Source: an uncultured Bacteroidia bacterium (GTDB lineage Bacteria > CAIWAD01 > BS150m-G50). From it: 64,000 nt of DNA. The notes under the pieces are model-generated. The model was not told the DNA's origin, ran no database searches, and saw nothing but the letters and a program-made list of their open reading frames with translations. Positions within the stretch are counted from its first letter, which is position 1. The number at the start of each line of letters is the position of its first letter. A program made the translations under genes and the position numbers. The stretch spans positions 10 to 64,009 of the forward strand of contig CAZFEC010000008.1 of the NCBI GenBank assembly GCA_964517435.1, given 5' to 3'. Positions 10,376 to 60,410 of the stretch are shown one piece after another.

Positions 10376-10422
10376 ACGGTTTTGAACATGCAACCGTACT
10401 GTATCACATCGAGCAGGAACAA

Positions 10423-11313
10423 ATGACAGCCTCAATCCCCGTTCACCACCGCGAGGACTTCTTTCCAACACAGGGCGGCCTCCAGCTGTTCGAGCAGTCC
10501 TGGGCGCCACCAGTCCCCCGGGCGGTGATCGTGATCGTTCATGGCTATGCGGAGCACAGTTCGCGGTATGCGGAGACGGCGCTGTACCTGGCCCGGCAAG
10601 GGTATGCCCTGCAGGCATTCGATCTACAGGGACACGGGCGTTCGCCGGGGCGGCGCTGTTTCATCAGGGCTTTCGACGACTGCCTGGAGGATCTGGATCT
10701 GCTGCTGCAAAGGACCGCGCCCAGGTGGACGGGTCTGCCATGCTTCCTGCTGGGGCACAGCCTGGGCGGACTGATCGCCGTCCTCTTTGCGATCGAAGCG
10801 CGAGCCGATCTGTCCGGGCTGATTCTGAGCGCGCCCTCGGTGAAGCTGGGCGGGGACTTTTCCCCGCTCAAGGTGAAAGCCGCCCTGCGGTTGGGGCGAT
10901 GGCTTCCCCGTCTCCCGACTACCAGGTTCAACAGCGCTTCCATCTCGCGCGATCCGGCCGTGGTGCAGGCCTACCGCGACGATCCGCTGGTCAACCACGA
11001 TCGCATTCCCGCCCGGACTGCCTCGGAGATTATCCGGGCGATCGGACGCGCACAGTTGAACCTGGAGCGGATCACCCTCCCGCTGCTGGTCATGCACGGC
11101 GGCAACGACCAGGTGACCGACAGCGCGGGGAGCAGGGAACTTTACACCCGCGCCGGCTCCAAAGACAAAAGCTTTCGCCTCTGGGAGGGTCTCCATCACG
11201 AGATCATGAACGAACCGGAACGGGAGCAGGTGCTGGCGGAGATTGCGGACTGGTTGCGGGAGCGCACGCACCGGGCGGTTCCGGAGGACCAGCCGCCTGT
11301 TACACGCAGCTGA
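10423..11313 (+). CDS. Alpha/beta hydrolase, lysophospholipase/monoacylglycerol lipase-like
   Basis: HGYAEHSSRY...GHGRS and nucleophile elbow GHSLGG; an Asp/His pair near the C-terminus. Confidence 0.8.
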   Translation: MTASIPVHHREDFFPTQGGLQLFEQSWAPPVPRAVIVIVHGYAEHSSRYAETALYLARQGYALQAFDLQGHGRSPGRRCFIRAFDDCLEDLDLLLQRTAPRWTGLPCFLLGHSLGGLIAVLFAIEARADLSGLILSAPSVKLGGDFSPLKVKAALRLGRWLPRLPTTRFNSASISRDPAVVQAYRDDPLVNHDRIPARTASEIIRAIGRAQLNLERITLPLLVMHGGNDQVTDSAGSRELYTRAGSKDKSFRLWEGLHHEIMNEPEREQVLAEIADWLRERTHRAVPEDQPPVTRS

Positions 11314-11337
11314 TCTAATTCACAAGCCGGAGCAGAC

Positions 11338-15403: not shown

Positions 15404-16105
15404 ATGAGCGAAACCTTAATCACCACGTTGAAACGGAAGCGGGCGATACTCTTCGACCTGTTCCACACCCTTACCTCACTGGAAGCGGTGGGTTGCAGCG
15501 GCCAGGGAACCTGCGACATTCTGGGTGTATCACGTGATAACTGGAACGAACAGCTGCTGGAGTGTTCCCGCGACCGGCTCGTCGGGAAGCTGACGAACCC
15601 CCACCAGATAATCCGCCGTATGGCCCACGCTATCGATCCCGCCATCACGGAAGAGCGGATCGTGCGGGCGACGGAACACCGGATCGAGGGATTCGCACAG
15701 GCACTGGTCAATGTGCCGGAGACGACACTCACCGCACTCACTACCCTGCGTCAGGCGGGCAAGAGACTCGCCCTGATCAGCAATGCCGACGTAATAGAGG
15801 CACAGGCCTGGGAACGATCCCCTCTGGCTGGACTGTTTGACCTCGTACTGTTTTCCTGCCGGGTCGGGAGCGCGAAGCCGGAACCGGAGATCTATCGTCT
15901 TTGTCTGGAGCGGCTCGCGCTTGAGCCGGAAGATTGCCTGTTCGTGGGTGACGGCGGTTCGGACGAGCTGGCCGGAGCACGTGCCTGTGGAATCACCACG
16001 GTAATGATGGCCGGCATCATCCGGCGGCTCTGGCCGCAGTGGATTGAGGCCAGGCGGGAACAGGCGGACTTCGTCATCGAGGAGTTGACGGAGCTGCTGG
16101 CATGA
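15404..16105 (+). CDS. HAD superfamily hydrolase (haloacid dehalogenase-like, subfamily IA)
   Basis: Motif I ILFDLFHTL, motif III K, motif IV FVGDGGSDE. Confidence 0.7.
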   Translation: MSETLITTLKRKRAILFDLFHTLTSLEAVGCSGQGTCDILGVSRDNWNEQLLECSRDRLVGKLTNPHQIIRRMAHAIDPAITEERIVRATEHRIEGFAQALVNVPETTLTALTTLRQAGKRLALISNADVIEAQAWERSPLAGLFDLVLFSCRVGSAKPEPEIYRLCLERLALEPEDCLFVGDGGSDELAGARACGITTVMMAGIIRRLWPQWIEARREQADFVIEELTELLA

Positions 16106-16882: not shown

Positions 16883-16956
16883 GTTGTCATCCTTTTCGCC
16901 TGGTGCGGATCGGCCGGATGTGATACATTATCCAACCTGACTTTCAAGAGGGACAC

Positions 16957-17568
16957 TTGAACATCGTATTCGACCTGGGTGGTGTCATCTTCAAATGGGA
17001 GCCGGCGGCGATCATCGCCGGAGTTTTCCCCGATCCGGCAGAGCAAGCCCTGGTGCGTACGCAGCTGTTCAAGCATCCCGACTGGAGTGAACTGGATCGC
17101 GGTACTCTGGCGCAACCGGAAGCGATCGCGCGGGCTGTGACGCGTACCGGACTGGCGGAAACTGAAATCGCGGAGCTGATGCGTCGGATACCGCCGGCTC
17201 TGATCGCGATCCCAGCCATGATTGATCTCCTCCACCGGCTCCGGGAAGGGGGACACCGGCTCTACTTCCTCTCCAATATGCAGGCCGCCTCCATCGAACA
17301 TCTGGAGCAAGCCAACCATTTCTGGGATGTGTTCGACGGCGGCGTCATCTCCTGCCGACTGCAGCAGATCAAGCCGGAACCGGGCATCTATCGCCACCTG
17401 CTGGAAACCTACCATCTGGTGGGAGCCGAGACGCTCTTCATCGACGACACGGAGATAAACCTGCCGCCGGCGGAGCAGCTGGGCATCCGGACGCTCCATT
17501 TCGAGAGCCCGGCACAATGCGAAGCGCGCTTGCGGGAACTGGGTGTGATTCCGGTTGACGCGATGTGA
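16957..17568 (+). CDS. HAD-IA family hydrolase
   Basis: TTG start; motif I IVFDLGGVIF and motif IV FIDDT. Confidence 0.7.
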   Translation: MNIVFDLGGVIFKWEPAAIIAGVFPDPAEQALVRTQLFKHPDWSELDRGTLAQPEAIARAVTRTGLAETEIAELMRRIPPALIAIPAMIDLLHRLREGGHRLYFLSNMQAASIEHLEQANHFWDVFDGGVISCRLQQIKPEPGIYRHLLETYHLVGAETLFIDDTEINLPPAEQLGIRTLHFESPAQCEARLRELGVIPVDAM

Positions 17569-17634
17569 TACAATTCACTGTATCCGCTTCCGGAGCCGCC
17601 GTTCCGTCTCCTCACCGGATGCCGGAGGAAAGTC

Positions 17635-26608: not shown

Positions 26609-26637
26609 CCAGGAAACAACAGTCAAGGGGTACGACC

Positions 26638-27009: not shown

Positions 27010-27076
27010 ACCGAACAGCTCTACCAGTTGAAAGCAATACTGGAAGGGGAGAACAGAGCACTTGGGAAGGAATAAT

Positions 27077-35148: not shown

Positions 35149-35679
35149 GTAGACCTCCGGTTGGGCGCGGCCCTTCGCGCTGACCGGAGATCTCCGGCGG
35201 TCAGAGCGGGAAGGCGGCGCGTGGTTTGGCAATTGAGAACCTGACCGGTTCCCGGCACGCGCTTCAGATTTGGTGTGACATCAGGGTGTGATACATTGCT
35301 CTTTCCTGGTTGGCTGCGCAGAGCACCATGGTTACCGGGCGATTGCGCGGGTTTCTTAACGGTAAAAAGATTGAACAACCGGTTCTACCGATCAAGCATT
35401 ATCTCATTCACACAAAGCGGATCCGGCGATCGGCGATATCCTCTGGACCTGGCCGGATCGGCTGGTATTGCTGACTTCCATCATCCATATACCGTTCCAT
35501 CCAGTAACTGCCGGGTTGCTAGTTGAAGGTGGGTTAGATACCTTCTCAATTGAGTTGATCGACAAATGTGAGACGTAGACAGTGAAGAAAAAGCAGGGAA
35601 GCAGGGAGCGGATGTCACGCGGTTCGGAACCTTTCGTTCGAAGTGAAGGCCGGGTACCGCCTGTAAGCCGACAGGGACA

Positions 35680-46943: not shown

Positions 46944-46953
46944 CTGTCACTCC

Positions 46954-49900
46954 TCACTTCAACAGCATCATCTTGCGGGTCTGGTTGAGGTGCTCGCTCT
47001 GCACCCTCAGGAAGTAGACACCGCTGGCCAGGTTCCCCGTCTCCCGGCTGTCGAAAACCAGCACCTGGTGACCCGCCGGCAGGTAGCCGTCCCAGAGTTG
47101 CGCCACGCGCCGGCCCAGCACATCGTAAACGGTTGCCCGCAGGTGTTCGCCCGTCACCAGGGTTAGGTCGAAGCTGGTAACCGGATTGAAGGGATTGGGA
47201 TAGGGGTGGGAAAGCGTCCAGACATCGGGTGTCGTCAGCGGCTCACGCGTGCCGGTCAGCAGCAGGAAACGGCCGCCGTGGTTCACCTCTGTGTGAAGGT
47301 TCCCCGACTCGCTGTCACGATATGTATCACACCAGACCGTATCTCCCGCTTCCACACGGTAAATGCCATAGTGGCACTCCTCCGGTGCGCCTGCCGGTAC
47401 CGTAAAGGTGATGCGCACCGCGCCCGGCAGCTGTAACGGCAGCAGGTCGAATCCGGCGGTGCCGTCTGGAGTGAGATCGTGTATCACATAGCGGGTAGCG
47501 ACGGGAATATCCCGGCACAAACGCAATCGGTATTCATCCCCCGGTCCGGGCAGCAGATCACCGGCCGCCTGCATGTAGTTGCTGCTGATCAGCAGCGTAT
47601 CCTGTGTCACGTTACCCGCCAGATCGACGGCGGTTAAACCGATGACCACGTCGCCGGTACCGATGAAGAGATAACTCCCCAGATAGAGATCATAGGCATC
47701 CGGCTCGGTTCCGCTCTGGATCAACTCGAAAGTGACCGAACCGCTGCTCGCTGAAGCCGCCAGGGGCGGGGTAAGCGGCTCATCCACCATCACCAGCAGA
47801 TCGAGGTACTCATTCACGGCCGGATTGGGCAGAATCCCCGGGCTCAACGTCGGGGGGATGTTCTCCAGCGACACCACCAAGAGCGGGCCGCTGTCGCTGT
47901 TGCCGTCGTTGTCGAGTACGGTCACTTCCGCGACGGTGTTGTCGTGGAAGAGTGAATCCGGCTCGATCACCAGACAGTCGGCGTCCGGCAGATAGGTGAT
48001 GGCGACGGAATCGATCACCGCGATCTCCCATTCGAGGTACTCATCGGGGGAGTCGGGATCGTAGACATAACCGGAGAGATTCCGGAGCGTGTCGCTGCTG
48101 CCGGCGCGCAGGGTGACGGGCGGCAGCGTGTAGAGCTGCGGGGCGGCGCCGGCTGTCACCTGAAAGCGCCACCAGGCCGCAGCGGTATCACCATCCGGAT
48201 CCTCCACCGCGAAGAGGAGACTGTCACTGCCGGTGATCATCAGCGAGTTGAATGTGACACAACGTGATACAGTGTCCAGAATCGCTTCCACCAGGTTCCC
48301 GCCGCTCCAACTCCAATCGAGACTGGTGACGGGATCATCGTGATCGTAGACATAATCGTCCAGCGGCCAGGGACCGGAGGTGGTCAGCGTGGACAACGTC
48401 AACTCCGGGAAATCGAATATGAGCGGTACGCCGGTCGTGTCGATCACCAGCAGACGGCAGTCGTCGCCGGTCAGGTTGGAATCAGGATCGAAACAGTAGA
48501 AGGCGATGTCGGTAAGGCTGCCGGGCGTGAGGGGCGCGGTAACCTGAACCAGATGGCTGGCCGGGTCGACCGACACCTGGAAGGGCGCGGGATCGGTGAA
48601 CGCCCAGGTCATCTGGTCCGGATCGTGATCGAAATCCCAGACATGGTCGTCCAGATCGAGGTGGTTGTCCACCTCACCCGGGAGCAGTAGCAGATCGGGC
48701 AGGGCGGCTGCCTGCGGCAGTCCATTGTAGAGGAGAACCGCCGTAACCGCCGCGGTCGCGCTGTTCTGATCGGGATCGGTAACGGTGAACTGCAGCTCCT
48801 CCCAGCCCTGTGTCGCCGGCGACGCGCTGAGCGTAGCCACATGTGTCACACTGTTGATCTGAACCGAGACCAGGTCGCCGCTGCCGGCGGACCAGCTCAG
48901 TTGCGAATCGGCGTGATCGGCGTCGGCAACATAATCATCCAGATAAAGCAGTTCGCCGGTTCCGTTGTGTAACACCTGGGCCGGGATGACGGCCAATACC
49001 GGCGGCGCGCTGGCAACCTGCACGATCAGCGTGTCCTGGTCCTGCAGCGGTTCCGGATCGCTGACCGTCAGCAGATAGGGAAAAGACTGGCCGATCAGCG
49101 AGACGGCGGTGGTGAAGAAGCGGAGTGTTCCCTCGTAGGTATCCACCACGGTCGAGATGCTGTCATGCGCGCCCGCCAGGGTCCAGATCATCTCCTGCCA
49201 GTCGTGATCGGGGTCGTAGACCAGGTCCGGCAGCTGGAGGACCAGCTCGCTGCCGGGGTGCAGCGGGAACAGGAGCGGTTCGGTAAGCAATGGTGCGTCG
49301 TTGACCGGCGTTACCTCCAGCGGTATAAAAGAAGTATCCGCCAGGCCCAGGGGATCGCTGACGATAAAAGTGACGCTGTCGCTGCCGCTCCAGTTCAGGG
49401 GCGGGGTCAGTCGCGCCCGGTGCGACACCGGATCAATCGCGAGCGTCACCAGGCTCTGTTCCGGCACCGCGTAGGTCAACCAGCCGGCGGCATGGTCGTT
49501 GTCGGTCACGAAGTCATCCAGGACGAGCGAGCTGTCGACGTCATCTTCCGCCCAGCTTACCAGCGGCAGCGGTTCCGCAACCTGGGGCGCGTCGTCACAC
49601 AGCACGGCCAGCGTGTCCACGGCGGCGGTCAAGTCGGGCGCCGTAGCTTGAATCGCCACCTCCAGCCAGGCCGGCGTTACCGGCAGGCGGTTGAAGATGA
49701 ACAGGAAGGCCTCGCTGTCTACCCGCACCGTGTCGATGGTGGCCGAGTTACCGCCGGCCAGCACCTCATAGCTGATGACGAATTCCGAATCGGGACAGAA
49801 GAACGCCTCCAGGTGATCGTAGAGGTTCAGGGTGTCGCAGGGCTGGAAAGTCGTCAGCTGCAGATCGGGCAGGGGCGGGTAGAAAGCGAAACCGGCGATT

Positions 49901-50478: not shown

Positions 50479-53400
50479 TGCAGATGCATCACTTTGCGGG
50501 TGGCTCGATGTTCGGGAGTCACAGCCTGGAGGAAATAAAGCCCGGCGGCGAAACTCTCCGCCCGCCATTGCAGCTGATAGCTGCCGGGAACGATTGTATC
50601 ACGGTACAGCACTTCCACCTGCTGGCCGAGGATGTTGTATACCGCCAGACGCAGCGAAGTTGTTTCGTAAACGACCAGGGGAATGGTCAGACTGCTGTTG
50701 AAGGGGTTTGGCCAGGGAGGCGGCAGCTCGAAAGCGAGCGGTGGCGCCGTAACCACGCCGCTGGTGGTGCGGAAGGCGGTGTCGACGGAATGACCCTCGA
50801 GCAGCAGAACCGGCAGACCGCTGCCGGTGGGCAGGGTGAACCGCGCCAAAGCCAGTTCACCGCTGACGCCCGGACTCTGACCGTAGCGGGCTACGGCCAG
50901 CAGGAGTCGATTGCCGTGGGTTTGTATCACGGACTGAGCTTCGGTGTCGAACAGTTCGCACAGCTGCAGATCGGTGACTGCGCCCGGCGGCAAAGCCAAC
51001 CGGGCACTCCAGCCGATCAGATCGCTGGCCGGCGCGATGACCAGGGTCCAGGTCGTGTATTCTCCGGCCGGTTGCCGCTCCAGCTGCCAGACCGGAGTGG
51101 CGTTGTGACCGCGGCGATAGACCGGCGGCACGCCGCTGCTGTTCAGGTTTGTCGTGCAGAGGGTCAGATCGGTGATATAGACCAGCTCATCTCCATCAAA
51201 GTCACAGTAGGAGTTCCAGCCGGCGGAATCAGGCGTACTGCCGTAAGCTTCCACGATGGCGTTGAGGTCGGTGGCGTCGATCTGGTTGTCCGGGAGGACG
51301 GTGTCGCTGCTGTCGACGTAACCGGCGCAGTCACCGGCGATCAGCTGCAGCAGGTCGACATCCTCGGAGTTGAAGTGCGGATTTACCCCCTCCAGCAGAT
51401 CGCCGTGTTGAATGTCGAACGGGTAGTAGCCGCTGAGCCAGCCCGGTACGCTCGCTACCAGTTCCCAGCAGCCGTCCGGCACCGAATGCAACTGGTAGGT
51501 GCCGTCGGTTCCCAGCTGCACCTGTACGCCGGCCGCGGCCGGATCGATGTCGTTCTGGTTGAACAGCGAATCGGTCACCGGCAGCCAGGATCCCGGCTCA
51601 CGCAGGATCAGCGTGGATTCGAGACCGTTATAATCGCGCCCCTGCAGCTGGACGTGTCCCGAAACCCGGCCGCGCGACCAGGTATACGAAATAGCCGCCG
51701 GCGACTGGATGGTGGTGCCCAGAAGTTCGCCATCCTGGTAGAAACTGGTGAAGCGGTTGGCCTCGTCGTCCACCGCGAAGACCAGGTTGTCGATGGTGGC
51801 GCCGGTAGCGGGATCGCGGCGGGGCAACAACTGCAGCGTGCAGAGCAGGTGGGTGCCGTCACTGAACTCCGGCACCGGAGCGCCGTTTTCAAAGTAGGTG
51901 AAATCGAGGTGATGGCGACCGTTGCTGAGGTCGCCCCCGTGATTGTCGTTTTCCAGTATGCTCGCTTCCTCGAAGTCAGGTCCGAGCCGGAAGGGTGACG
52001 TGAGCGAAACGATATCGAAAGCGACCGTGTCCACGTCGACATAGAGGCTGATCATGTCGGCTGTGATCACGCCCGCCTGCGGATAGATCGAAACGGTGAC
52101 CGTGTCGCCGGGAAAGGTGTCGAAGCGGTAAGGCCGCATCTGCAGGTTGTAGCAGATATTGCCGCCGAAGCCGTTGATCGCCAGCGTACCCGGCGCTGTA
52201 AAGACCGGGTCGGCGGCGTCCGGTTCCTGGCCGGCGGGATTGCTGCTGACCAGTAGAAAGACGTGATACGTCTCATCGCCGGCGTCTTCCAACGGTATAC
52301 CCTCCCCGACCGAAGGTCCGGTCATGGTATTGGGCAGGAACTCCCAGGTGGTGATGTCGCCGGCCGGCGTATCGAGATGCTGGTCGATCGTGCCATCCTG
52401 TGAATTCATCACCCAGAGATTCGGCACCGACGTAGTCAGGTCGAACCAGGTCGCTTCCGGCAATTCGCAGCCCGTATCTCCCAGCAGCAGGAAGAGCTGC
52501 TGATGTTCGCCGCCGAAATTCCAGGCGTAGACCCAGCGCACCAGATAACTGGCGTGAGCGGAGATCGCCGCTCCCAGGGGCGGCGGGTCGACCAGCATCA
52601 CATTAGGAGCCGCCTGGAACCGGAACGAAGTGATCGGTTCATCCTCCGCGAGGAAGTTGTCGTAACCATCCTCGAAGGAACCCAGCCGTCCGGTGACGCC
52701 GTCGTCGATGTGGGCGTAGAAATGCAGCCAGCCGCTGTGCGTGATGATCTGGTTGGCCAGCGCGGAGGGCAGGTCGGCCGGATGCCAGACGTACATGTTG
52801 TCCGGCTGCTGGTCGGGATCCTCGTGGATACCCTGCACCATCAGCTCGCCGTTAGCCAGCCAACCATCGGTCGCGGCCAGGGTGTCGATCAACAGGTCCA
52901 TGGTCGCCTGGCTGAAGTCCGCCAGGCTGTCATCGCTGGCGTCGATGTAGAGCGCGATCAGGGCGTCGTCGTCGGCGTCCCGGTCGCCGTCTACTGTCTC
53001 CCCCCAGTTGAAGGTGAAGCAGAAGTCCTCCCCCAGGTCGATGGTAGTCGCGGGGGGCGTTTGCAGATCGATCAGCGGCGTGTGATACACCGTCACCGGC
53101 GCCTCGCTCTCGCGCAACACCGCGTGACGGCCGTCACCAGCGACGGCGTAGACGCTGTACTGGCCTGCAGTCACCCATTCGCTGGCTGAACTGTAGACGG
53201 TCCAGGGATACTCCTGGTAGAGATCGACCGGCAGGGGAGCCGGTGTGATCGCTTCGCAGCCGGTTAAGCCCACTACTGTCAACGCTGGTGGTGAACCGCT
53301 GGTGACTATCGCGTTTGCCGTGATGCCGGCGGGACCGTAGAAAAGAGAAACCTCCGGCACGGAATCGAGATCCTCGGCGGCGAACTCCAACATCACCTGG

Positions 53401-54371
53401 GGTGTGCCGCTGCCGTCCGGAACGGCCGAAAGCGGATTATACAGGCGGCCGGAATCGAGGTGCAACTCGGTAGTGGGGTCCACAGCCAGCACTTCCGGAA
53501 AGTGATACACCCGCAACCAGCCGCTGTGGCCGACGCTGCGCTGCGTGGTCAGGGAGGATGCGGCGTAGAGGTAGTATGGCGCCGCCTCGTTTTCCTCCAG
53601 TGCGGCCGTCAGAACCGCCTGTTCAAGGGCACCTGCCGGCAGGTTGATCAAGGGTTGCCCCGCCAGGTCCACGGCGGCGAAAGCCTCCGCCGTGATCGAG
53701 GTCAGGGCGGGGTTGGTACTCCAGTAGAGCGAATAGGTGGCTCCCAGTACATCGCTGAGCGTCCCGCTGCAGGTAAAAGCGTAGCCGCCGTCCCCGCCGC
53801 AGGTCGCCGTTGAATCCTGCTGCGGCGCGGTGAAAACCGCCGCGGGACCGGGGATGGCGCTGATCAAACCGGCCACGGCCTGGGTGGTATCGATTTCGGC
53901 GGTACCGATCAACTGAACCGGCAGGGCCGGGACGGCCGCGGCGGTGGTTGTATCACAACAGGCGAAGAGGGCGAGGAAACGGATGTTGCCCCCGCCGCCG
54001 ATGCTGGTTTCGCACAGCAGCTGCAGAGTGTCGCCGGCGACCTGCAGCGAAAAGGCGCCGCCAATGTCGGTGGCGTCGATTTGCGCCATTCCATTCAACT
54101 GACTGTCAAACTGGAACTGTGACGGCAGCACGATCGTGATCGTCTCACCCGCGATGATGTCCTGACTCTGCTCAACCTGCAGGATCAGGTCGCGGCCGTG
54201 AAAAGCGGAAGTCGTGATGTCGACGGGAGTGTAGGGGCCGCCGCCGGTCAGGTAAGGCAGCTCTATCGCGGTGGCCGACAGCGATTGTGCCACGTTGACA
54301 GCGGCTGCCGCCGTTCCAGTGAACCACAGGCACAGCTGCATAGTCAGCCAGGCTTTAACGCGCAGTCGCAA
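50475..54371 (-). CDS. Giant secreted protein with dockerin-like segment and C-terminal T9SS sorting domain
   Basis: TTG start at 54371 with GAGGAG 5 nt upstream; signal peptide. Dockerin-like DFDGDELVYITDL. C-terminus PWPNPFNS...GLYFLQ... is a T9SS CTD. Confidence 0.7.
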   Translation of the reverse strand: MRLRVKAWLTMQLCLWFTGTAAAAVNVAQSLSATAIELPYLTGGGPYTPVDITTSAFHGRDLILQVEQSQDIIAGETITIVLPSQFQFDSQLNGMAQIDATDIGGAFSLQVAGDTLQLLCETSIGGGGNIRFLALFACCDTTTAAAVPALPVQLIGTAEIDTTQAVAGLISAIPGPAAVFTAPQQDSTATCGGDGGYAFTCSGTLSDVLGATYSLYWSTNPALTSITAEAFAAVDLAGQPLINLPAGALEQAVLTAALEENEAAPYYLYAASSLTTQRSVGHSGWLRVYHFPEVLAVDPTTELHLDSGRLYNPLSAVPDGSGTPQVMLEFAAEDLDSVPEVSLFYGPAGITANAIVTSGSPPALTVVGLTGCEAITPAPLPVDLYQEYPWTVYSSASEWVTAGQYSVYAVAGDGRHAVLRESEAPVTVYHTPLIDLQTPPATTIDLGEDFCFTFNWGETVDGDRDADDDALIALYIDASDDSLADFSQATMDLLIDTLAATDGWLANGELMVQGIHEDPDQQPDNMYVWHPADLPSALANQIITHSGWLHFYAHIDDGVTGRLGSFEDGYDNFLAEDEPITSFRFQAAPNVMLVDPPPLGAAISAHASYLVRWVYAWNFGGEHQQLFLLLGDTGCELPEATWFDLTTSVPNLWVMNSQDGTIDQHLDTPAGDITTWEFLPNTMTGPSVGEGIPLEDAGDETYHVFLLVSSNPAGQEPDAADPVFTAPGTLAINGFGGNICYNLQMRPYRFDTFPGDTVTVSIYPQAGVITADMISLYVDVDTVAFDIVSLTSPFRLGPDFEEASILENDNHGGDLSNGRHHLDFTYFENGAPVPEFSDGTHLLCTLQLLPRRDPATGATIDNLVFAVDDEANRFTSFYQDGELLGTTIQSPAAISYTWSRGRVSGHVQLQGRDYNGLESTLILREPGSWLPVTDSLFNQNDIDPAAAGVQVQLGTDGTYQLHSVPDGCWELVASVPGWLSGYYPFDIQHGDLLEGVNPHFNSEDVDLLQLIAGDCAGYVDSSDTVLPDNQIDATDLNAIVEAYGSTPDSAGWNSYCDFDGDELVYITDLTLCTTNLNSSGVPPVYRRGHNATPVWQLERQPAGEYTTWTLVIAPASDLIGWSARLALPPGAVTDLQLCELFDTEAQSVIQTHGNRLLLAVARYGQSPGVSGELALARFTLPTGSGLPVLLLEGHSVDTAFRTTSGVVTAPPLAFELPPPWPNPFNSSLTIPLVVYETTSLRLAVYNILGQQVEVLYRDTIVPGSYQLQWRAESFAAGLYFLQAVTPEHRATRKVMHLQ

Positions 54372-54875
54372 GCGGACTCCTCAAGCTTGGGCGAGCTTTG
54401 GAAAAGCCGTCACCGGCGAATCCTGGACAACAGGCACATCAGTACATTTCCAGCCCTGCTCGCTTTACATAATATGCAGCAAGAGCCATGCCAGCGCTCC
54501 AGCTCCGTCAACAGCACGTAAGCATTCTCCCATTGTGATAAATAACAAGGTGATACGACTGCGCAACTTCAGAATGGATGAACTTCCGGAGCCGTTTCGC
54601 AGAACGACAGGCGCGGTAAAGGTTTCCCCACCGGAAACAATTACCTGGAAACCTGATGTGTACCACCCCATGCTCGGGGCGACTCCGCCGGTTCAGGAAG
54701 TGGTTGTGTGCGGTACGCCGCCGCCTGGACCGCCAATCTTTTCCCTCGGCCGGCCGGTTACAAAAACTGTTGGCACTTCAGTTGATGATTTTACATATTG
54801 CCTGCAGAGAAGTGAGCGGAAGCGACGTGATACATTCGATCGGTTCAGTTATTGAATGAGAGTGATCCCGCGTCG

Positions 54876-55769
54876 ATGAGTGACAAAGTTGATACCATCC
54901 GGGCGATGCAGGAGCGGATCCTCAGCATCCGTGATCTGCCGACACTGCCTGTTGTCGCGGTGGAGATCATGGGACTGGTTCAGCGCGACTCTTCCTCAGT
55001 CATGGATGTCGCCCAGGTCATGTACCGCGATCCGGTCCTGACCGCCAAAGTACTCAAGCTCGCCAATTCCGCCTTCTACGGTCTACGACGCCAGGTCGAA
55101 ACCCTCAACCAGGCCATGGTAGTGCTGGGTTTCAGTGAGATACTCAACCTGGTGCAGAGCGTGTCGGTAGTACAGGCGTTCAAGGATGAGCAATTCGAGG
55201 ACAGTTTCGATCTCAACGCTTTCTGGGACCATTCCGTCGGCACCGGCGAGATCAGCCGGGCGCTGGCGACCAAGGTCGGATTGCGGTTTGACGGAGCCGA
55301 TTTCACGGCGGGATTGATTCACGACATCGGCAAGGTGGTCCTGGAGATGTACTTCCACGAGGACTTCACCCGCGCGCTGAAGACTTCACGCACCAGCGAG
55401 ACACCACTGTATCAATCGGAGCGGAAAGTGCTGGGTGTTGACCACACCGAGATCGGCACCTGGCTGGCGGAGCGCTGGACACTGCCGGAACGACTCGTCG
55501 ATGTGATACAAAACCACCATGCTCCGCTCCAGAGTTCCCGTGATAAAGTACTGGTGGCGATCGTCCATCTCGCCAATACGCTGGCCAAGGTCGCCAATAT
55601 CGGCTTCAGCGGCGACCGGGTGGTCTTCGACCTGAAACAGGATCCCGCCTGGCTGTTGCTGGAACGGGAGGCGCCCGCCATGGAACAATTCGATCTGGCC
55701 CGTTTCACATTCGAGCTGGACGACAAAGTGGAACGGGCACGTGATTTCATGCGCATCGTGAGCAGCTAA
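54876..55769 (+). CDS. HDOD domain signalling protein
   Basis: LPTLPVVAVEIMGLV...DPVLTAKVLKLANSAFYG is the HDOD signature. Start ambiguous (TTG 54852 or ATG 54876). Confidence 0.7.
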   Translation: MSDKVDTIRAMQERILSIRDLPTLPVVAVEIMGLVQRDSSSVMDVAQVMYRDPVLTAKVLKLANSAFYGLRRQVETLNQAMVVLGFSEILNLVQSVSVVQAFKDEQFEDSFDLNAFWDHSVGTGEISRALATKVGLRFDGADFTAGLIHDIGKVVLEMYFHEDFTRALKTSRTSETPLYQSERKVLGVDHTEIGTWLAERWTLPERLVDVIQNHHAPLQSSRDKVLVAIVHLANTLAKVANIGFSGDRVVFDLKQDPAWLLLEREAPAMEQFDLARFTFELDDKVERARDFMRIVSS

Positions 55770-55783: not shown

Positions 55784-56626
55784 GTGCATCATCTCGATGA
55801 AGTAGTGGTGCAAGCCAGGCAGCAACTCTACGACTGTTCCGGTATCTATATTTCCGGCAACCAACTATCGTACTTCGAGCGACAGATCCTCGCCCGGATG
55901 GAGGAACTGGAGCTGGAATCGGGATTCGATTATCTGGAAAGGCTGAGCAACGGTACGCAGGACGATGAGATCAGTCAACTGTTGAAGCGGGTCTTCGTAT
56001 CCGACACCCGCTTTTTCAGCCACCGCTTCCAGATTAACGCCATCGTGGAATACGCGATACCGGAAATCCTGCATGAACGCAACCTCGACAGAATCAACAT
56101 CTGGTATCACGGGATGGCCCGTGGGGAAGGGCTTTATTCGCTACTCCTGCTGCTGAACGAACAGGTGCGCCGCATCACCCGCAAGTGCCAATACCGGATC
56201 ATCGGCAGCGATGTCGACAGCCTGGCGCTGGAGCGCACGCGTCAGGCCAAGTTCCGCTGGTCCTCCCTGTCGCACCTTGATGAGGAACTGCGTAAGACCT
56301 ACTTCGAAGTGGTGGACAACACCAAGTATCGCTTCCTCCCCCTGCCGGACCAGGAGCTGGAGTTCCTGCAACTGGTTCCGCACGAAGACGAGCAGTGGCA
56401 GGCTGTCGAGACTGTGGATCTGATCATATTCCAGAATATCCTGATGTATTACGGTCTGCGGCAGCGTCAACAGATCGCCGAGAAGCTTTATAACAAGCTG
56501 AATCCGCTCGGGTACCTGTTCGTCGGACCGACCGAGTCGCTGTACCAGGTTACCGATAGCTTCAACATCATCCATTTCACCAAGACACTGGGCTACAAGA
56601 AGCCGGGTGACGGTTCACAAAAGTGA
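55784..56626 (+). CDS. CheR-type protein-glutamate O-methyltransferase
   Basis: TRFFSH (compare CheR TxFFR) and a SAM-binding region (IWYHGMARGEG). Confidence 0.7.
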   Translation: MHHLDEVVVQARQQLYDCSGIYISGNQLSYFERQILARMEELELESGFDYLERLSNGTQDDEISQLLKRVFVSDTRFFSHRFQINAIVEYAIPEILHERNLDRINIWYHGMARGEGLYSLLLLLNEQVRRITRKCQYRIIGSDVDSLALERTRQAKFRWSSLSHLDEELRKTYFEVVDNTKYRFLPLPDQELEFLQLVPHEDEQWQAVETVDLIIFQNILMYYGLRQRQQIAEKLYNKLNPLGYLFVGPTESLYQVTDSFNIIHFTKTLGYKKPGDGSQK

Positions 56627-56677
56627 TACACAACGCTTGAGCTGACACCAGTTGCGGTGCTGGAAAAGGGGATGCGC

Positions 56678-57121: not shown

Positions 57122-57128
57122 GGTGGAA

Positions 57129-59459
57129 ATGCAGAACAACGACGCTCCCAGCGCGATCAAGATTCCCGGCAAGCTGCCACTGCTGCCTCTGGACGACATC
57201 GTCGTCTTTCCCTTTGTTATAGCACCGGTAGTGGTGGCGGAACCACGCCAGCTGGAGATGGTTAATCATGTGCTCTCCGGCGACAAGATGCTGGCGGTGT
57301 TCTCGAAACGCAGCACCGAGACGATGGACGAGGATCGCCGCTTCTACGATACCGGCTGCGCCGCCATCGTTTTGAAGATGTTCAAGATGCAGAACGGCGA
57401 GGTCGGTCTGCTGCTGCAGGGCCTGGCCCGGGTACAACTGGACAAACTGGTCCGGCGTGATCCCTTCCTGGAGGGCAGTCTTACTATTCTACGCGAGGAC
57501 TCCCGGTCCTCCCTGAAAATCGAAGCGTTGCGCAAGGAACTCAAACGCAAGTTCCAGATCATGGCGCAGAACCGCCATATCGTGAAGGAGGATGTCCAAT
57601 CCGCCATCCTCAACATCCAGGAACCGGGCAAGCTGTGCGATGTGATCGTCTCCAATCTGCCGGTTACGGTCGAGGAACGTCAACGGATTCTGGATACGGT
57701 CAATATCACCAAACGTCTCCACGGTACCACGCACCTGTTGCAGCGGGAGATCGAGCTGGAGGAACTCAGCCAGCAGATCAAGAAGTCGGTCGACCAGGAG
57801 ATCGAGGTCTCCGAGAAACAGCGCTACCTGCGGGCGCAGATCAACATGATGCAGCGGGAGCTGGGTGAGGAAGACAGCGGCGAGGAACTGGACCAGATGC
57901 TGGTGGACGCCCGCGAGAGCGGCATGAGCCAGGAAGCGTTGCAGGCAGTGGAGAAGGAGATCCGCCGCATGCGCAGCATGTCCGCCTCTTCAGCCGACTA
58001 CCATGTCCTTCGCGGTTATGTGGAGTGGATGATCGATCTGCCCTGGCAGAAACGTGATACAAAACCGCTGAACATACGCAAAGCCGCCGCGGTCCTGAAT
58101 CGCGATCATTACGGGCTGGATGAGGTCAAGAACCGCATTCTGGAATTTCTGGCGGTGATGGAGCTTAATCCGGATACCCGCAGCCCGATTCTATGTCTGG
58201 TCGGCCCGCCCGGCGTGGGCAAGACCTCCCTGGGGCGTTCCATCGCTTCGGCGCTTAACCGCAAGTTCACCCGCCTGGCCCTGGGCGGCGTCCACGACGA
58301 AGCGGAGATCCGCGGGCATCGCAAGACTTATGTCGGCGCCTTTCCCGGCCGGATTATCCAGCGTCTGCGCGACGCCGGCACCCGCAATCCTGTCTTCATG
58401 CTGGATGAGATCGACAAGCTGGGCGCCGACGTCAAAGGGGATCCCGCCAGCGCGCTCCTGGAAGTGCTGGATCCGGAGCAGAACCACGAATTCATGGATC
58501 ACTTCCTCGATGTGAAGTTCGATCTGTCCGAAGTCATCTTCATCACTACGGCCAACCAGCCCTACAACATTCCGGAGCCGCTGCTGGACCGGATGGAAGT
58601 GATTCACCTCCCGGGCTACCTCAAACAGGAGAAGGTGCAAATCGCCCGGACCTACCTGATCCCGCGCCAGCTGGAGAACAGCGGCCTGACCAAGCGGCAT
58701 CTCACCATCACCGCCGCCGGCTTGAACGCCATTATCAGCGGCTATACGCGGGAGGCGGGAGTCCGCAAGCTGGAACAGCAGATCGGGGCGATCTGCCGGA
58801 AGACGGCCCGTCGCGTTCTGGTCAAACCCTCCCGGCGCATCAGCCTGACCAGCCGCAATCTGCCGGAGTTCCTCGGGGCGCCGCGGCACCAACTCACCCA
58901 GCGGCCGAGTCGCCGCCAGGCCGGCGTTTCGACCGGCCTCGCCTGGACTCCTTACGGCGGCGTGGTCCTCTATGTCGAAACCAGCCTGATGCCGGGTGGA
59001 CGCAATTTGAAGCTGACCGGACAGCTGGGGGAAGTGATGCGGGAATCGGCCGAAACCGCGCTTTCCTACCTGCGCGCCAACAGCGCCAAGTTCAACCTGC
59101 CGGAACATTTCTTCAACGAGTCGGACATCCACATGCATATACCCGCCGGCGCGACACCCAAAGACGGGCCTTCCGCCGGGACCGCCCTCATCCTGGCGCT
59201 GTTGTCGCTGCTCTGGCGCAAACCGCTGCCGGCCGGGGTGGCGGTGACGGGTGAAATAACCCTGACCGGGGAAGTGATGCCGGTCGGCGGCATCAAGGAG
59301 AAGCTGCTGGCCGCAAAAGAGGGGCAAATCCGGCGCGTGCTGATTCCCGCCGGCAACGCGGCCGACCTCGCGGAGGTGCCGTCGGAAGTCAAGCGCAACC
59401 TCAAGATCAAGCTGGTCAAGCGAATTTCCGAGGTGGTGAGCGAAGCTTTCGGTGCCTGA
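57129..59459 (+). CDS. lon: ATP-dependent Lon protease (LonA)
   Basis: Lon N-terminal domain, Walker A GPPGVGKTS, protease Ser in PKDGPSAGTAL. Start could instead be GTG 57123. Confidence 0.9.
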   Translation: MQNNDAPSAIKIPGKLPLLPLDDIVVFPFVIAPVVVAEPRQLEMVNHVLSGDKMLAVFSKRSTETMDEDRRFYDTGCAAIVLKMFKMQNGEVGLLLQGLARVQLDKLVRRDPFLEGSLTILREDSRSSLKIEALRKELKRKFQIMAQNRHIVKEDVQSAILNIQEPGKLCDVIVSNLPVTVEERQRILDTVNITKRLHGTTHLLQREIELEELSQQIKKSVDQEIEVSEKQRYLRAQINMMQRELGEEDSGEELDQMLVDARESGMSQEALQAVEKEIRRMRSMSASSADYHVLRGYVEWMIDLPWQKRDTKPLNIRKAAAVLNRDHYGLDEVKNRILEFLAVMELNPDTRSPILCLVGPPGVGKTSLGRSIASALNRKFTRLALGGVHDEAEIRGHRKTYVGAFPGRIIQRLRDAGTRNPVFMLDEIDKLGADVKGDPASALLEVLDPEQNHEFMDHFLDVKFDLSEVIFITTANQPYNIPEPLLDRMEVIHLPGYLKQEKVQIARTYLIPRQLENSGLTKRHLTITAAGLNAIISGYTREAGVRKLEQQIGAICRKTARRVLVKPSRRISLTSRNLPEFLGAPRHQLTQRPSRRQAGVSTGLAWTPYGGVVLYVETSLMPGGRNLKLTGQLGEVMRESAETALSYLRANSAKFNLPEHFFNESDIHMHIPAGATPKDGPSAGTALILALLSLLWRKPLPAGVAVTGEITLTGEVMPVGGIKEKLLAAKEGQIRRVLIPAGNAADLAEVPSEVKRNLKIKLVKRISEVVSEAFGA

Positions 59460-59594
59460 GTGATCGGGAGCCGTATTGGCGCCCAACCGGATCCGGCTGA
59501 CCGGCGCTATCGCGGTCGGGCCCGCCGGATTGATACCCATCCATCCCCTCACAACGAACCCGGTACCCGTACGTCACCGGAGCGATTTCCAGAA

Positions 59595-60410
59595 GTGAAA
59601 ACGGATTTCCACCTCCATACCCACCTGTGCCGGCATGCCGCCGGCGGGATGGAGGAGTATGTGCGACAGGCCCTGGCACTCGGCCTGGAGCATATCTGCT
59701 TCACCGATCACGTCCCCCTGCCTTATGATTTCGACCTGACCCACCGGATGGGGCCGGAACAGCTGTCCGACTACATCGCCGGCGTGCGGGAATTGCAGCG
59801 GCGCTATCGGGGCCGCATCGAAATCGGTCTCGGTCTGGAGTGCGACTACCTGCCCGGCGTGGAACCGTGGCTCGAGCGGATTCTGGCGGAGCAGGAGTGG
59901 GACTGCGTGCTGGGGAGTATTCACTTTGTGGGCCACATCCGCTCCGACGCGCCGGTCTTCGTCTTCCGGCCGGGCGAGGTGCCGCTGGACCAGCTGGAGG
60001 ATAACTACTGGCGACAGCTGGACGAGCTGGTCACCTGCGGGCTCTTCGATGCGATCACCCACCTGGATATCTTCAAGAAACGGGGCTGGCGGCCGCAACC
60101 GGAACGGCTGCCGCGGATCACCGGGATCCTGGACCGCATGGCCGCCGCCGGCACAGCTCTGGAAGTCAACGCCTCCGGTTACGATAAGCCGGAGGTGGGG
60201 GAAGCCTATCCCCATCCCCAACTGTTGCGCCTGGCGGTTGAGCGGGGATTGACTTTCATCTACGGCTCTGACGCGCATCAACCGCAGCAGGTAGGGCGCT
60301 ACCGGGACGTGATACAATCTCAACTGCTACGGCTGGGGGTAGAGCAACACGCGATCTACCGCAGGCGGCAACGATTCCTGCTGCCGTTGACAGCGGACGG
60401 GTGTGAGTGA
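59595..60410 (+). CDS. hisK: PHP-family histidinol-phosphatase (HisJ/HisK-type)
   Basis: DFHLHTHLC...FTDH are PHP metal-binding motifs. GTG 59595 gives a typical ~270 aa product; the ORF-track start 59460 abuts the lon stop. Confidence 0.65.
   Translation: MKTDFHLHTHLCRHAAGGMEEYVRQALALGLEHICFTDHVPLPYDFDLTHRMGPEQLSDYIAGVRELQRRYRGRIEIGLGLECDYLPGVEPWLERILAEQEWDCVLGSIHFVGHIRSDAPVFVFRPGEVPLDQLEDNYWRQLDELVTCGLFDAITHLDIFKKRGWRPQPERLPRITGILDRMAAAGTALEVNASGYDKPEVGEAYPHPQLLRLAVERGLTFIYGSDAHQPQQVGRYRDVIQSQLLRLGVEQHAIYRRRQRFLLPLTADGCE

What the first reader, a model, noticed from the sequence alone, without database searches (positions are those of the whole stretch)
10400..60316. Octamer GTGATACA / TGTATCAC is about 20-fold over-represented (19 exact copies in 64 kb)
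I count 19 exact copies by eye. Plus-strand GTGATACA starts: 16920, 17565, 35287, 48264, 50438, 53092, 53503, 54827, 55503, 56623, 58054, 60309. TGTATCAC starts: 10400, 32087, 47323, 47480, 50595, 50923, 53949. At least 7 more sites match the 7-mer GTGATAC. At about 62% GC, a 5-A/T octamer is expected roughly once on both strands combined. Thirteen copies lie inside coding sequences in different frames. Nine of those lie within the two giant T9SS genes. Several are read as gtg-ATA-caa, forcing the rare Ile codon ATA, which argues for selection at the DNA level. Four copies extend to GTATCACGG, and two share GGGTTTGTATCACGG (32081 and 50917). This pattern resembles Chi sites, uptake or architecture signals, or a regulator box. 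Orientation is 12:7, not strongly skewed.
Basis: seen in the sequence. Interest (0 to 1): 0.8.

Follow-up and report, generated by a model that had tools for sequence, protein, structure and literature searches.

The report
Hyper-abundant genome word GTGATACA
The 8-base word GTGATACA occurs about 10-20 times more often than chance allows in this uncultured bacterium and in some of its relatives. It sits in genes in every reading frame and on both strands, so it is a real DNA-level signal of unknown function, most like DNA-uptake sequences or the cyanobacterial HIP1 word.

Summary
There are 23 exact copies (14 +, 9 -) against 1-2.5 expected under order 0-4 Markov models or dinucleotide shuffles. 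It is the top-ranked 8-mer in the window. One-mismatch variants are at background, flanks are unrelated, and all five stop-free frames, both gene orientations and intergenic DNA are used. It is therefore a sharp DNA-level word, YGTGATACAWW.

The same word is the most over-represented 8-mer in three other species of the window's clade (GC 50-55%). It is also top in a second clade, two genomes whose HisRS is 55% identical to the window's. It is absent from three syntenic Delongbacteria-like relatives, probably absent from a fourth relative sampled over only 5.4 kb, and not enriched in 1.24 Mb from 80 other genomes.

Orthologous sites are kept 7-13 times more often than ordinary 8-mers, yet many sites are species-specific.

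Orientation shows no polarity: 41:46 relative to GC skew, and the ratio reverses between syntenic loci. This argues against Chi or KOPS. Sites are not concentrated between genes, so a regulator box is unlikely.

The best guess is a DNA-uptake-type signal (confidence about 0.3). A HIP1-like chromosomal binding word and a repair or methylation by-product remain open. The octamer appears in no searchable paper.

The parts
7466..7473 (+). GTGATACA site inside the flavin-reductase gene 6904-7491, sense strand, read xGT-GAT-ACA
10400..10407 (-). site in the intergenic gap between 9653-10375 and 10423-11313
15526..15533 (-). site inside HAD-hydrolase gene 15404-16105, antisense
16920..16927 (+). intergenic site between 16154-16882 and 16957-17568
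17565..17572 (+). site whose internal TGA is the stop codon of gene 16957-17568
25861..25868 (-). site inside rhodanese-PEBP gene 25061-26608, antisense
32087..32094 (-). site inside selD 31243-32229(-), sense, read GTG-ATA-CAA (rare ATA codon)
35288..35295 (+). intergenic site between 34021-35232(-) and 35680-36069(+)
46809..46816 (+). site inside TPR gene 46311-46943(-), antisense; conserved in all four clade-1 species
47323..47330 (-). site in giant T9SS gene 46954-50478(-), sense; only in this species
47480..47487 (-). site in giant T9SS gene 46954-50478(-), sense, GTG-ATA-CAC; only in this species
48264..48271 (+). site in giant T9SS gene 46954-50478(-), antisense; shared with L003 and L341
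50438..50445 (+). site at the 5' end of giant T9SS gene 46954-50478(-), antisense; shared with L003
50595..50602 (-). site in the C-terminal sorting domain region of giant T9SS gene 50475-54371(-), sense; conserved in all four species
50923..50930 (-). site in giant T9SS gene 50475-54371(-), sense, GTG-ATA-CAA; only in this species
53082..53089 (+). site in giant T9SS gene 50475-54371(-), antisense; conserved in all four species
53502..53509 (+). site in giant T9SS gene 50475-54371(-), antisense; only in this species
53949..53956 (-). site in giant T9SS gene 50475-54371(-), sense; only in this species
54827..54834 (+). intergenic site upstream of HDOD gene 54852-55769; ACGTGATACATT is conserved in all four species although the surrounding spacer is only 37% conserved
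55503..55510 (+). site inside HDOD gene, sense, GTG-ATA-CAA; shared with L007 and L341 (L003 has GTGATACG)
56623..56630 (+). site whose internal TGA is the stop codon of the CheR gene 55784-56626
58054..58061 (+). site inside lon 57123-59459, sense
60309..60316 (+). site inside histidinol-phosphatase gene 59460-60410, sense, GTG-ATA-CAA

Best explanation
GTGATACA (extended consensus YGTGATACAWW) is a lineage-specific, genome-wide DNA word. It is read on duplex DNA by a sequence-specific protein, independently of genes, transcription and replication direction.

SHOWN:
- It is 10-40 fold over-represented.
- It is exact.
- It is indifferent to reading frame and strand.
- It is non-polar.
- It is present in two separate uncultured clades of the FCB (Fibrobacteres-Chlorobi-Bacteroidetes) group, and it is missing from their nearer relatives.
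- Individual sites are retained far more often than neighbouring sequence, while new sites keep arising by point mutation.

INFERRED, my committed guess: it is a DNA-uptake signal for natural transformation. Fragments carrying the word would be bound and imported preferentially by a surface DNA receptor. They would then recombine into the chromosome, so alleles containing the word spread (molecular drive) wherever coding constraints tolerate them. Lineages that lose the receptor or competence lose the word. This would explain both the combination of site conservation with turnover and the patchy phylogeny.

The general statement, a protein-read DNA word kept by selection or drive, has confidence of about 0.9. 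The specific uptake mechanism has confidence of about 0.3.
For: Abundance and sharpness:
- 23 copies against 1-2.5 expected; top 8-mer in the window.
- The 24 one-mismatch variants occur 0-4 times each.
- Pooled over four loci, transition neighbours are only mildly enriched (GTGACACA 18, GTGATACG 16), as expected for decaying or proto-sites.

DNA level:
- All five stop-free frames are used. Over five loci there are 40 sense and 29 antisense sites, 10 intergenic sites and 3 supplying a stop codon.
- GTG-ATA-CA accounts for 5 of 92 ATA codons.
- Flanks are unrelated.
- A weak extended consensus exists, as in USS/DUS: Y at -1 in 55 of 68 sites, and W at +1 and +2 in 45 and 46 of 68.

Non-polar, like USS/DUS:
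- 41:46 relative to the GC-skew-inferred leading strand.
- The syntenic region gives 8:5 in the window's species, 5:11 in L007 and 7:12 in L341.
- A 75% Chi-type skew is rejected at P<=1e-4 under either assignment of the leading strand.

Lineage-wide distribution:
- It is the top 8-mer in L003 (12 in 21 kb), L007 (16), L341 (19 in 19 kb), L011 (17 in 21 kb) and L340 (12 in 11 kb).
- Control: 17 copies against 28 expected in 1.24 Mb from 80 other genomes.

Maintenance with turnover:
- At 63-67% nucleotide identity, 42-60% of sites are shared between species pairs, against 4.6-6.1% of all 8-mers (P about 1e-5).
- Of 23 site columns across four species, 4 are occupied in all four, 4 in three, 5 in two and 10 in one.
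- Frye et al. explain the exceptional over-representation and conservation of DUS dialects by a DUS-dependent bias in transformation and recombination (PMC3630211). The combination seen here fits that reading.
Against: - No competence, pilus or DNA-receptor gene was seen in about 190 kb of lineage DNA. Whole genomes could not be inspected.
- The word is 8 bp with an observed/expected ratio of 10-40. Known uptake sequences have 9-12 bp cores and, from my own knowledge, higher excess.
- None of the sites forms a close inverted pair or terminator hairpin, which is common for neisserial DUS.
- Density is very uneven. 15 of 23 sites lie in 13.5 kb (p = 0.00025), and L011 has none in 10 kb. Local sequence conservation explains little of this.
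- The identical word occurs in two clades whose HisRS is 55% identical, yet is absent from three relatives at 62-65% identity that share synteny. Known DUS dialects track phylogeny (PMC3630211).
- These organisms are uncultured, so uptake has never been measured.
Confidence: 0.3

Rival explanations
1. HIP1-like chromosomal binding word. The octamer would be the in-situ binding site of an abundant chromosome-structuring, segregation or repair-loading protein. Selection would keep each site where it is, and the clustering of sites would reflect chromosome domains.
For: - Site-level conservation is well above background. This is the argument used for selection on HIP1, which is also an octamer, is 15-300 fold over-represented, has no gene-level role and is linked to nucleoid structure through its periodic spacing (PMC5861425).
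- Sites cluster significantly (p = 0.00025), and the dense and sparse stretches are the same in four species.
- There is no relation to gene ends, strand or intergenic space.
- A patchy phylogeny fits gain and loss of a single reader gene.
Against: - The word is not a palindrome, unlike HIP1.
- No known nucleoid protein uses thousands of exact 8-mers.
- Turnover is high. 10 of 23 site columns are species-specific in clade 1, and only 4 of 14 and 12 sites are shared in clade 2. This suggests that number matters more than position.
- No candidate protein has been identified.
Confidence: 0.25
2. By-product of sequence-specific DNA modification or repair. A mobile methyltransferase or restriction-modification system recognising GTGATACA, coupled to a mismatch-nicking repair activity (as Vsr is coupled to Dcm), would convert near-cognate sequences into the word without any function for the sites themselves.
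For: - The patchy distribution of an identical word in distant clades, with absence in closer relatives, is what mobile restriction-modification or methyltransferase genes would produce.
- The word is non-polar and gene-independent.
- New sites arise frequently.
Against: - No one-mismatch neighbour is depleted. The deamination-type variants are at or above expectation: GTGATATA 4 against 1.5-2.8, GTAATACA 6 against 1.2-1.8, ATGATACA 1 against 2.6-3.9.
- From my own knowledge, known very-short-patch (VSP) repair effects on word frequency are far weaker than 10-40 fold.
- Conservation of orthologous sites with diverged flanks argues for selection, as argued for HIP1 (PMC5861425).
- No DNA methyltransferase or Vsr gene occurs in the loci read.
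Confidence: 0.15
3. Polar recombination or segregation signal: a Chi site for AddAB/RecBCD, or a KOPS-type guide for FtsK.
For: - It is an over-represented exact octamer at about one per 1-3 kb, which is the density range of Chi (one per 5 kb in E. coli; bioRxiv 10.1101/2020.08.13.249359).
- The window alone (14:9 on the GC-skew-positive strand) does not exclude a 75% skew (P = 0.096).
Against: - Polarity on the leading strand is a defining property of Chi and is used as a detection criterion.
- Here the pooled ratio is 41:46. The syntenic region reverses from 8:5 to 5:11 and 7:12 between species with the same GC-skew sign. Joint P<=1e-4 under either orientation.
- From my own knowledge, the word is not G-rich.
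- An identical word in distant clades but not in nearer relatives is odd for vertically inherited RecC or AddB specificity.
Confidence: 0.05
4. Operator of a global transcription factor, or a promoter-like element.
For: - Some intergenic copies are well conserved. ACGTGATACATT upstream of the HDOD gene is kept in four species.
- With AT following, the word resembles an extended -10 element (TGnTAnAAT). In an unrelated phage contig it appears in that role.
Against: - 84% of sites are inside genes, matching the coding fraction.
- Orientation relative to genes is random (40:29).
- There is no positional bias within genes (34 outer against 35 inner).
- The word is exact rather than degenerate.
Confidence: 0.03
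5. Artefact: chance, a biased background model, a duplicated segment, or a repeated peptide.
For: Order-6 Markov expectation is 17, but only because that model is built from the word's own 7-mers.
Against: - None of 100 shuffles reached 23; the maximum was 5.
- It is the top word under orders 2-4.
- Flanks are unrelated.
- Five frames and both strands are used.
- It is reproduced in independent assemblies from JGI, ENA, Logan and NCBI.
- The protein-level repeats seen in motif-negative relatives look quite different: same strand and in frame.
Confidence: 0.01

Closest known systems
DNA uptake sequences (DUS of Neisseriaceae, USS of Pasteurellaceae)
   Same: - A short exact word with a weaker flanking consensus.
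- Hundreds to thousands of copies per genome implied, at 0.4-1 per kb.
- Both orientations, inside genes in several frames as well as between genes.
- Lineage-restricted.
- Orthologous sites conserved, yet with turnover.
- One-off variants mildly enriched.
   Different: - 8 bp rather than 9-12 bp, with a lower excess.
- No inverted-pair terminators.
- Strongly uneven density.
- Distribution does not track phylogeny: two clades share one word while nearer relatives have none.
- The organisms belong to the FCB group, where no uptake sequence is known (my own knowledge).
- Neither uptake nor a receptor has been demonstrated.
HIP1 (GCGATCGC) of cyanobacteria (PMC5861425)
   Same: - An octamer with 15-300 fold excess (here 10-40 fold).
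- Found within and between genes.
- No peptide, RNA or expression role.
- Sites conserved between genomes beyond background.
- Function unknown.
- From my own knowledge, its presence among related lineages is also patchy.
   Different: - HIP1 is a perfect palindrome containing methylation sites; GTGATACA is asymmetric.
- The phylum is different.
- Periodicity could not be tested on 64 kb.
Chi (GCTGGTGG and Chi-like words) and KOPS/AIMS octamers
   Same: An over-represented exact 5-8-mer scattered through core genes at about one per few kb.
   Different: - Those words are polarised on the leading strand; this one is not.
- They are G-rich; this one is A+T-rich (5 of 8 bases) in a 60% GC genome.
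REP/MITE-type dispersed repeats
   Same: Many dispersed copies.
   Different: - Conservation does not extend beyond about 11 bp.
- There is no palindrome.
- Most copies lie inside intact genes.

Membership tests
DNA uptake sequence (DUS/USS) | Exact short word, strongly over-represented genome-wide | tested here: met
   23 copies against 1-2.5 expected in the window. 99 copies in 158 kb of six lineage loci against about 7.5 expected. Only loci were tested, not whole genomes.
DNA uptake sequence (DUS/USS) | No replication-strand polarity; both orientations | tested here: met
   41:46 relative to GC skew, with reversal between syntenic species.
DNA uptake sequence (DUS/USS) | Preferential binding and uptake of DNA carrying the word by competent cells | not testable with these tools
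   The organisms are uncultured; an uptake or transformation assay is needed.
DNA uptake sequence (DUS/USS) | Cognate receptor and competence machinery (ComP-like pilin, ComEA/ComEC, DprA) encoded in the genome | not tested
   None was seen in the window or the fetched loci.
DNA uptake sequence (DUS/USS) | Distribution congruent with phylogeny (dialects per clade) | tested here: not met
   The identical word occurs in two clades whose HisRS is 55% identical. It is absent in L092, L095 and L219, which are 62-65% identical to clade 2 and share its synteny.
DNA uptake sequence (DUS/USS) | Frequent inverted pairs forming terminators (DUS) | tested here: not met
   The smallest spacing between any two sites in the window is 157 nt. 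The closest inverted pair in any locus has a gap of 43 nt, in L003.
Chi / Chi-like | Polarisation on the leading strand | tested here: not met
   A 75% skew is rejected at P<=1e-4 under either strand assignment. Polarity is used as a defining criterion in bioRxiv 10.1101/2020.08.13.249359. Caveat: the replichore is inferred from GC skew only.
Chi / Chi-like | Recognition by RecBCD/AddAB with attenuation of nuclease activity | not testable with these tools
   Biochemistry is required. No recB/addA gene is present in the window.
KOPS / architecture-imparting sequences | Very strong strand skew switching at origin and terminus | tested here: not met
HIP1-like hyper-abundant words | Octamer more than 15-fold over-represented, in and between ORFs | tested here: met
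   Observed/expected is 9-14 under order 2-4 models in the window, and up to 39 in the first 11.4 kb of L011 (14 against 0.36).
HIP1-like hyper-abundant words | Sites conserved between genomes beyond background | tested here: met
   42-60% against 4.6-6.1%. In clade 2, 4 of 14 and 4 of 12 against 9%.
HIP1-like hyper-abundant words | Palindromic sequence | tested here: not met
   The reverse complement of GTGATACA is TGTATCAC.
HIP1-like hyper-abundant words | Periodic spacing at 10-90 kb | not testable with these tools
   Only 64 kb of contiguous sequence is available. Clustering is significant (p = 0.00025).
Dispersed repeat element (REP/MITE) | Conserved sequence or palindrome extending beyond the core | tested here: not met
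   The flank logo is flat beyond -1 and +2. The best flank match between any two sites is 26 of 60.
Transcription-factor regulon box | Degenerate sites concentrated upstream of genes | tested here: not met
   The word is exact. 69 of 82 sites are intragenic, and there is no positional bias.
Methyltransferase/VSP-repair-driven word bias | Depletion of the deamination-product neighbours of the word | tested here: not met
   GTGATATA, GTAATACA and ATGATACA are not depleted. Power is limited, with expectations of 1-4.

The most novel reading that the evidence does not exclude
GTGATACA is the first DNA-uptake (self-recognition) sequence outside the Proteobacteria. It would be used by uncultured FCB-group bacteria related to Candidatus Delongbacteria. 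Two deeply diverged clades share the same 'dialect'. This would mean either that the receptor gene moved horizontally or that the shared word keeps a channel of gene exchange open between them.
Probability: 0.25. Interest if true: 0.85.

Novelty: new variant of a known kind. Interest (0 to 1): 0.65.

Why it matters
Hyper-abundant exact words are rare. Each understood case revealed a core DNA transaction: Chi and recombination, KOPS and segregation, DUS/USS and transformation. HIP1 is still unsolved after decades.

This word is as sharp and as conserved as those. It is asymmetric and non-polar, and it lies in a barely studied uncultured lineage. It also offers a natural experiment: motif-positive and motif-negative relatives share synteny. 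Comparing their gene content could identify the protein that reads the word, and so test whether sequence-specific DNA uptake, or a HIP1-type function, exists in the FCB group.

In practice the word is also a strong binning and host-assignment marker for these organisms in metagenomes.

Tried and rejected
1. Genome-collection scan with HisRS. It therefore gave no names for the close relatives. I reused the 80 loci as a negative control.
2. Cluster look-up for organism names returned nothing beyond 'MAG: bacterium' and 'Candidatus Delongbacteria'.
3. Fishing for motif-rich contigs with two-copy patterns in viral contigs and metagenome contigs. Hits were almost all chance pairs or local iteron arrays. 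Only L303 (4 copies in 1.5 kb) looks like the lineage, and L181 is a phage promoter repeat.
4. 'Dialects' in motif-negative relatives. The top words in L092, L095 and L219 (GTAATAC, GGCACCTA, ACCGGCAC) are same-strand, in-frame peptide repeats of PPC-domain proteins, not DNA words.
5. Bias toward gene termini, as reported for uptake sequences (PMC2346458). Suggestive in the window alone, it disappears in the pooled data (34 outer against 35 inner).
6. Intergenic enrichment: 13 of 82 sites against a 9-15% non-coding fraction, so none.
7. Neighbour-word depletion, the VSP-repair signature: none.
8. Site density against GC3 gives only a weak correlation (rho = 0.29). Density against local conservation gives p = 0.07.
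9. Within-species SNPs are too few (0-34 per locus), and none falls in a site.
10. Resemblance to DnaA boxes, the CRP half-site, IHF sites and the extended -10 element was considered from memory. It was rejected because the spacing or key positions do not fit and the sites are intragenic.
11. A full-text search for the octamer found 0 papers.

Full report
OBSERVATION

An exact search finds 23 copies of GTGATACA/TGTATCAC in the 64 kb window, 14 on the + strand and 9 on the - strand. Three coordinates were off by 1-10 nt, and four sites were missed (7466, 15526, 25861, 46809). GC is 59.8%.

One hundred dinucleotide-preserving shuffles give a mean of 1.04 copies and never more than 5. Markov models of order 0-4 predict 1.1, 0.9, 1.6, 2.0 and 2.5 copies. 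The word is the single most over-represented 8-mer in the window under orders 2, 3 and 4, with z = 13-17. Orders 5 and 6 predict 5.6 and 17 only because they are built from the word's own 6- and 7-mers.

The signal is sharp. The 24 one-mismatch variants occur 0-4 times each.

No two sites share more than 26 of 60 flanking bases, against about 16 expected at random. The copies are therefore independent and do not come from a duplicated segment.

A DNA-LEVEL WORD

The octamer contains TGA, so one sense frame is closed. All five remaining frames are used.

In the window, 10 sites lie on the sense strand of a gene and 7 on the antisense strand. Four are intergenic, and two supply the TGA stop codon of a gene.

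GTG-ATA-CA accounts for 5 of the 92 ATA codons. ATA makes up 10% of Ile codons. I estimate about 0.15 such codons expected from the codon counts.

I pooled five loci from the lineage. This gave 40 sense and 29 antisense sites, 10 intergenic sites and 3 stop-overlapping sites, against a coding fraction of 85-92%. Intragenic positions are flat, with 34 in the outer halves of genes and 35 in the inner halves. There is thus no link to translation, transcription direction, gene ends or intergenic space.

A logo built from 68 sites extends the word only slightly. Position -1 is Y in 55 of 68 sites, and positions +1 and +2 are W in 45 and 46 of 68. This gives YGTGATACAWW, and the logo is flat beyond that.

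SOURCE ORGANISM

The window matches a JGI metagenome contig (3300009128, Ga0118727_1000934, 76.6 kb). The genes are ordinary housekeeping and metabolic genes:
- hisS, lon and selD;
- two giant genes with type IX secretion system (T9SS) sorting domains;
- an HDOD protein and CheR;
- fucosidases;
- a tRNA-Leu.

None has an evident role in recombination, competence or DNA modification.

The nearest named relatives of its HisRS are labelled Candidatus Delongbacteria and Calditrichota, at 52-55% identity. The organism is therefore an uncultured member of the FCB (Fibrobacteres-Chlorobi-Bacteroidetes) group.

RELATED GENOMES

Clade 1. HisRS homologues at 74-76% identity lie in syntenic loci of three other species: L003 (GC 55%), L007 (51%) and L341 (50%). 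GTGATACA is the top 8-mer in each, with 12, 16 and 19 copies in 19-21 kb against about 1.2-1.5 expected.

Clade 2. A HisRS 55% identical to the window's lies on a 3.72 Mb contig (L011). The word occurs there 17 times in 21 kb, including 14 in the first 11.4 kb against 0.36 expected. An 84%-identical relative of that genome, L340, has 12 copies in 11 kb.

Motif-negative relatives. L011 shares gene order (sfsA, bshC-bshB-bshA, hisS, T9SS genes) with three loci whose HisRS is 62-65% identical to its own:
- L092 (GCA_964568855.1, GC 65%) has 1 copy.
- L095 (Candidatus Delongbacteria GCA_041675285.1, GC 70%) has 1 copy.
- L219 (GC 64%) has 0 copies.

None of the three has a comparable alternative word. 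Their top 8-mers are same-strand, in-frame peptide repeats.

L217 is the nearest outgroup of clade 1, at 60-62% identity. It has no copy in 5.4 kb, which is suggestive only.

Control. Eighty loci from other phyla (1.24 Mb) hold 17 copies against 28 expected.

The word is therefore lineage-specific, spans a GC range of 50-60%, and is patchily distributed.

CONSERVATION AND TURNOVER

I aligned the syntenic 11 kb of the clade-1 species, which are 62-79% identical at the nucleotide level.
- Between species pairs at 63-67% nucleotide identity, 42-60% of sites are shared, against 4.6-6.1% of all 8-mers (binomial P about 1e-5).
- Flanks of shared sites have diverged. One example is GTTCGC|GTGATACA|AGGTCC against ACCAAT|GTGATACA|AACTCC.
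- Of 23 site columns across four species, 4 are occupied in all four, 4 in three, 5 in two and 10 in one.
- The empty orthologous positions usually hold one- or two-step variants such as GTGACACG or TGTGTCAC.

In clade 2 only 4 sites are shared, out of 14 in L011 and 12 in L340. The background for all 8-mers there is 9%.

Pooled one-mismatch neighbours are not depleted. Transition neighbours are mildly enriched.

Sites are thus both maintained and continually created.

POLARITY

GC skew is positive on the + strand of the window (+0.014), L003 (+0.038), L007 (+0.071) and L341 (+0.067). It is negative in L011 (-0.024).

Relative to the inferred leading strand the pooled count is 41:46.

The same syntenic region gives different ratios in different species:

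| Locus | + : - |
|---|---|
| window's species (L001) | 8:5 |
| L003 | 7:5 |
| L007 | 5:11 |
| L341 | 7:12 |

A Chi-type 75% skew is rejected at P<=1e-4 whichever strand is leading. Leading-strand polarity is a defining criterion for Chi (bioRxiv 10.1101/2020.08.13.249359) and for KOPS. Those readings are therefore disfavoured.

Caveat: replication direction is inferred from GC skew and synteny, not from a mapped origin.

UNEVEN DENSITY

Fifteen of the 23 sites lie between 46.8 and 60.3 kb (permutation p = 0.00025). The stretch from 35.3 to 46.8 kb has one site.

The sparse stretch upstream of hisS and the dense stretch downstream of it recur in all four clade-1 species. In L011, 13 sites lie within 6.5 kb, and none lies in 10 kb of T9SS genes.

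GC3 correlates only weakly with density (rho = 0.29), and local conservation is not significant (p = 0.07). Together they explain little. This remains unexplained.

INTERPRETATION

The properties listed under SHOWN in the best explanation define a protein-read duplex-DNA word kept by selection or drive.

Among known classes only DNA-uptake sequences and HIP1 share this profile.

I commit to an uptake-signal mechanism as the single most likely reading, with confidence of about 0.3. The reasons are:
- it explains non-polarity;
- it explains gene-independence;
- it explains the weak flanking consensus;
- it explains conservation together with turnover, through a transformation/recombination bias as proposed for DUS (PMC3630211);
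- it explains loss of the word in sister lineages.

The arguments against are:
- the short length and lower excess;
- the absence of inverted pairs;
- the uneven density;
- a distribution that does not follow phylogeny;
- the lack of any competence gene in the roughly 190 kb examined.

The main rivals are a HIP1-like in-situ binding word (0.25) and a by-product of a mobile methyltransferase or repair system (0.15). The second is favoured by the patchy phylogeny but not by the neighbour-word spectrum. Chi or KOPS (0.05), a regulator box (0.03) and artefact (0.01) are unlikely.

NOVELTY

A full-text search of 8 million papers finds the octamer nowhere. I know of no uptake sequence, Chi site or HIP-like word described for the FCB group; this rests on my own knowledge.

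I rate it a new variant of a known kind. It is a hyper-abundant lineage word that is asymmetric, non-polar and phylogenetically patchy.

LIMITS

- Only about 158 kb of motif-positive DNA could be read.
- No whole genome could be inspected.
- Clade-1 species share ancestry, so pooled counts are not independent.
- Taxonomy rests on one protein plus synteny.

Noticed in passing
window, 18 sites: + strand 1475, 19039, 20389, 32425, 33569, 44514, 46003, 53508, 56176, 58379, 62234; - strand 5930, 12831, 23981, 33013, 41749, 50495, 62117: A second over-represented octamer, CACCCGCA/TGCGGGTG, has 18 copies against 3.1 expected (11:7). It is weak in L003 (4 against 1.1) and absent in the other relatives, so it is species-specific and unexplained.
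   Followed up: partly
window 17565-17572 and 56623-56630; L011 4063-4070: The TGA inside the octamer serves as the stop codon of three genes: the HAD hydrolase 16957-17568, CheR 55784-56626, and sfsA in L011.
   Followed up: partly
window 46311-54371 (- strand): A conserved three-gene block lies next to hisS: a TPR protein followed by two giant proteins of about 1,200-1,300 aa with T9SS C-terminal sorting domains. The two giant genes overlap by 4 nt. The block is present in all four clade-1 species, and in L009 the first giant gene is split in two.
   Followed up: partly
window 25061-35232: Selenium/sulfur-handling genes lie within about 10 kb: selD (31243-32229, -), a class-V aminotransferase (32606-33763, -), a YeeE-like sulfur transporter (34021-35232, -) and a rhodanese-PEBP fusion (25061-26608, +).
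   Followed up: no
L011 11200-21000: Five consecutive T9SS-sorting-domain genes contain no copy of the octamer. The preceding 6.5 kb holds 13 copies. This may mark a recently acquired or fast-evolving segment.
   Followed up: no
L181 (IMG/VR viral contig) 4394-4433 and 8419-8443: A repeated CAATCCCCYTRTTTCGTGATACAAT sits upstream of ORFs in a 57% GC phage contig. There the octamer forms part of an extended -10-like promoter (TGaTAcAAT). It was probably found only because the search selected for motif pairs.
   Followed up: partly
L272 (metagenome contig, 1.1 kb): Two dense arrays of TGATGTATCA iterons (27 copies of ATACATCA) flank a low-complexity ORF. This is a local repeat array unrelated to the dispersed octamer.
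   Followed up: no
L303 (metagenome contig, 1.5 kb, GC 57%): Four copies of the octamer occur in 1.5 kb, apparently across an aminotransferase gene (read from the sequence, not checked with a domain search). This is probably another member of a motif-positive lineage.
   Followed up: no
L092, L095, L219: In the motif-negative relatives the most over-represented 8-mers (GGCACCTA, GTAATAC, ACCGGCAC) are same-strand codon repeats. They encode G-T-Y and Y-Y motifs of PPC-domain surface proteins. This is a useful contrast with a true DNA-level word.
   Followed up: yes
L340: Gene calls are fragmented: sfsA is split in two and the beta-helix gene is in pieces. This suggests frameshift errors in that assembly, although the octamer counts are unaffected.
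   Followed up: no
window 47323/47480 and 50438/50595: Two pairs of sites share an identical 157-nt spacing. Their flanks are unrelated, so this is taken as coincidence.
   Followed up: yes
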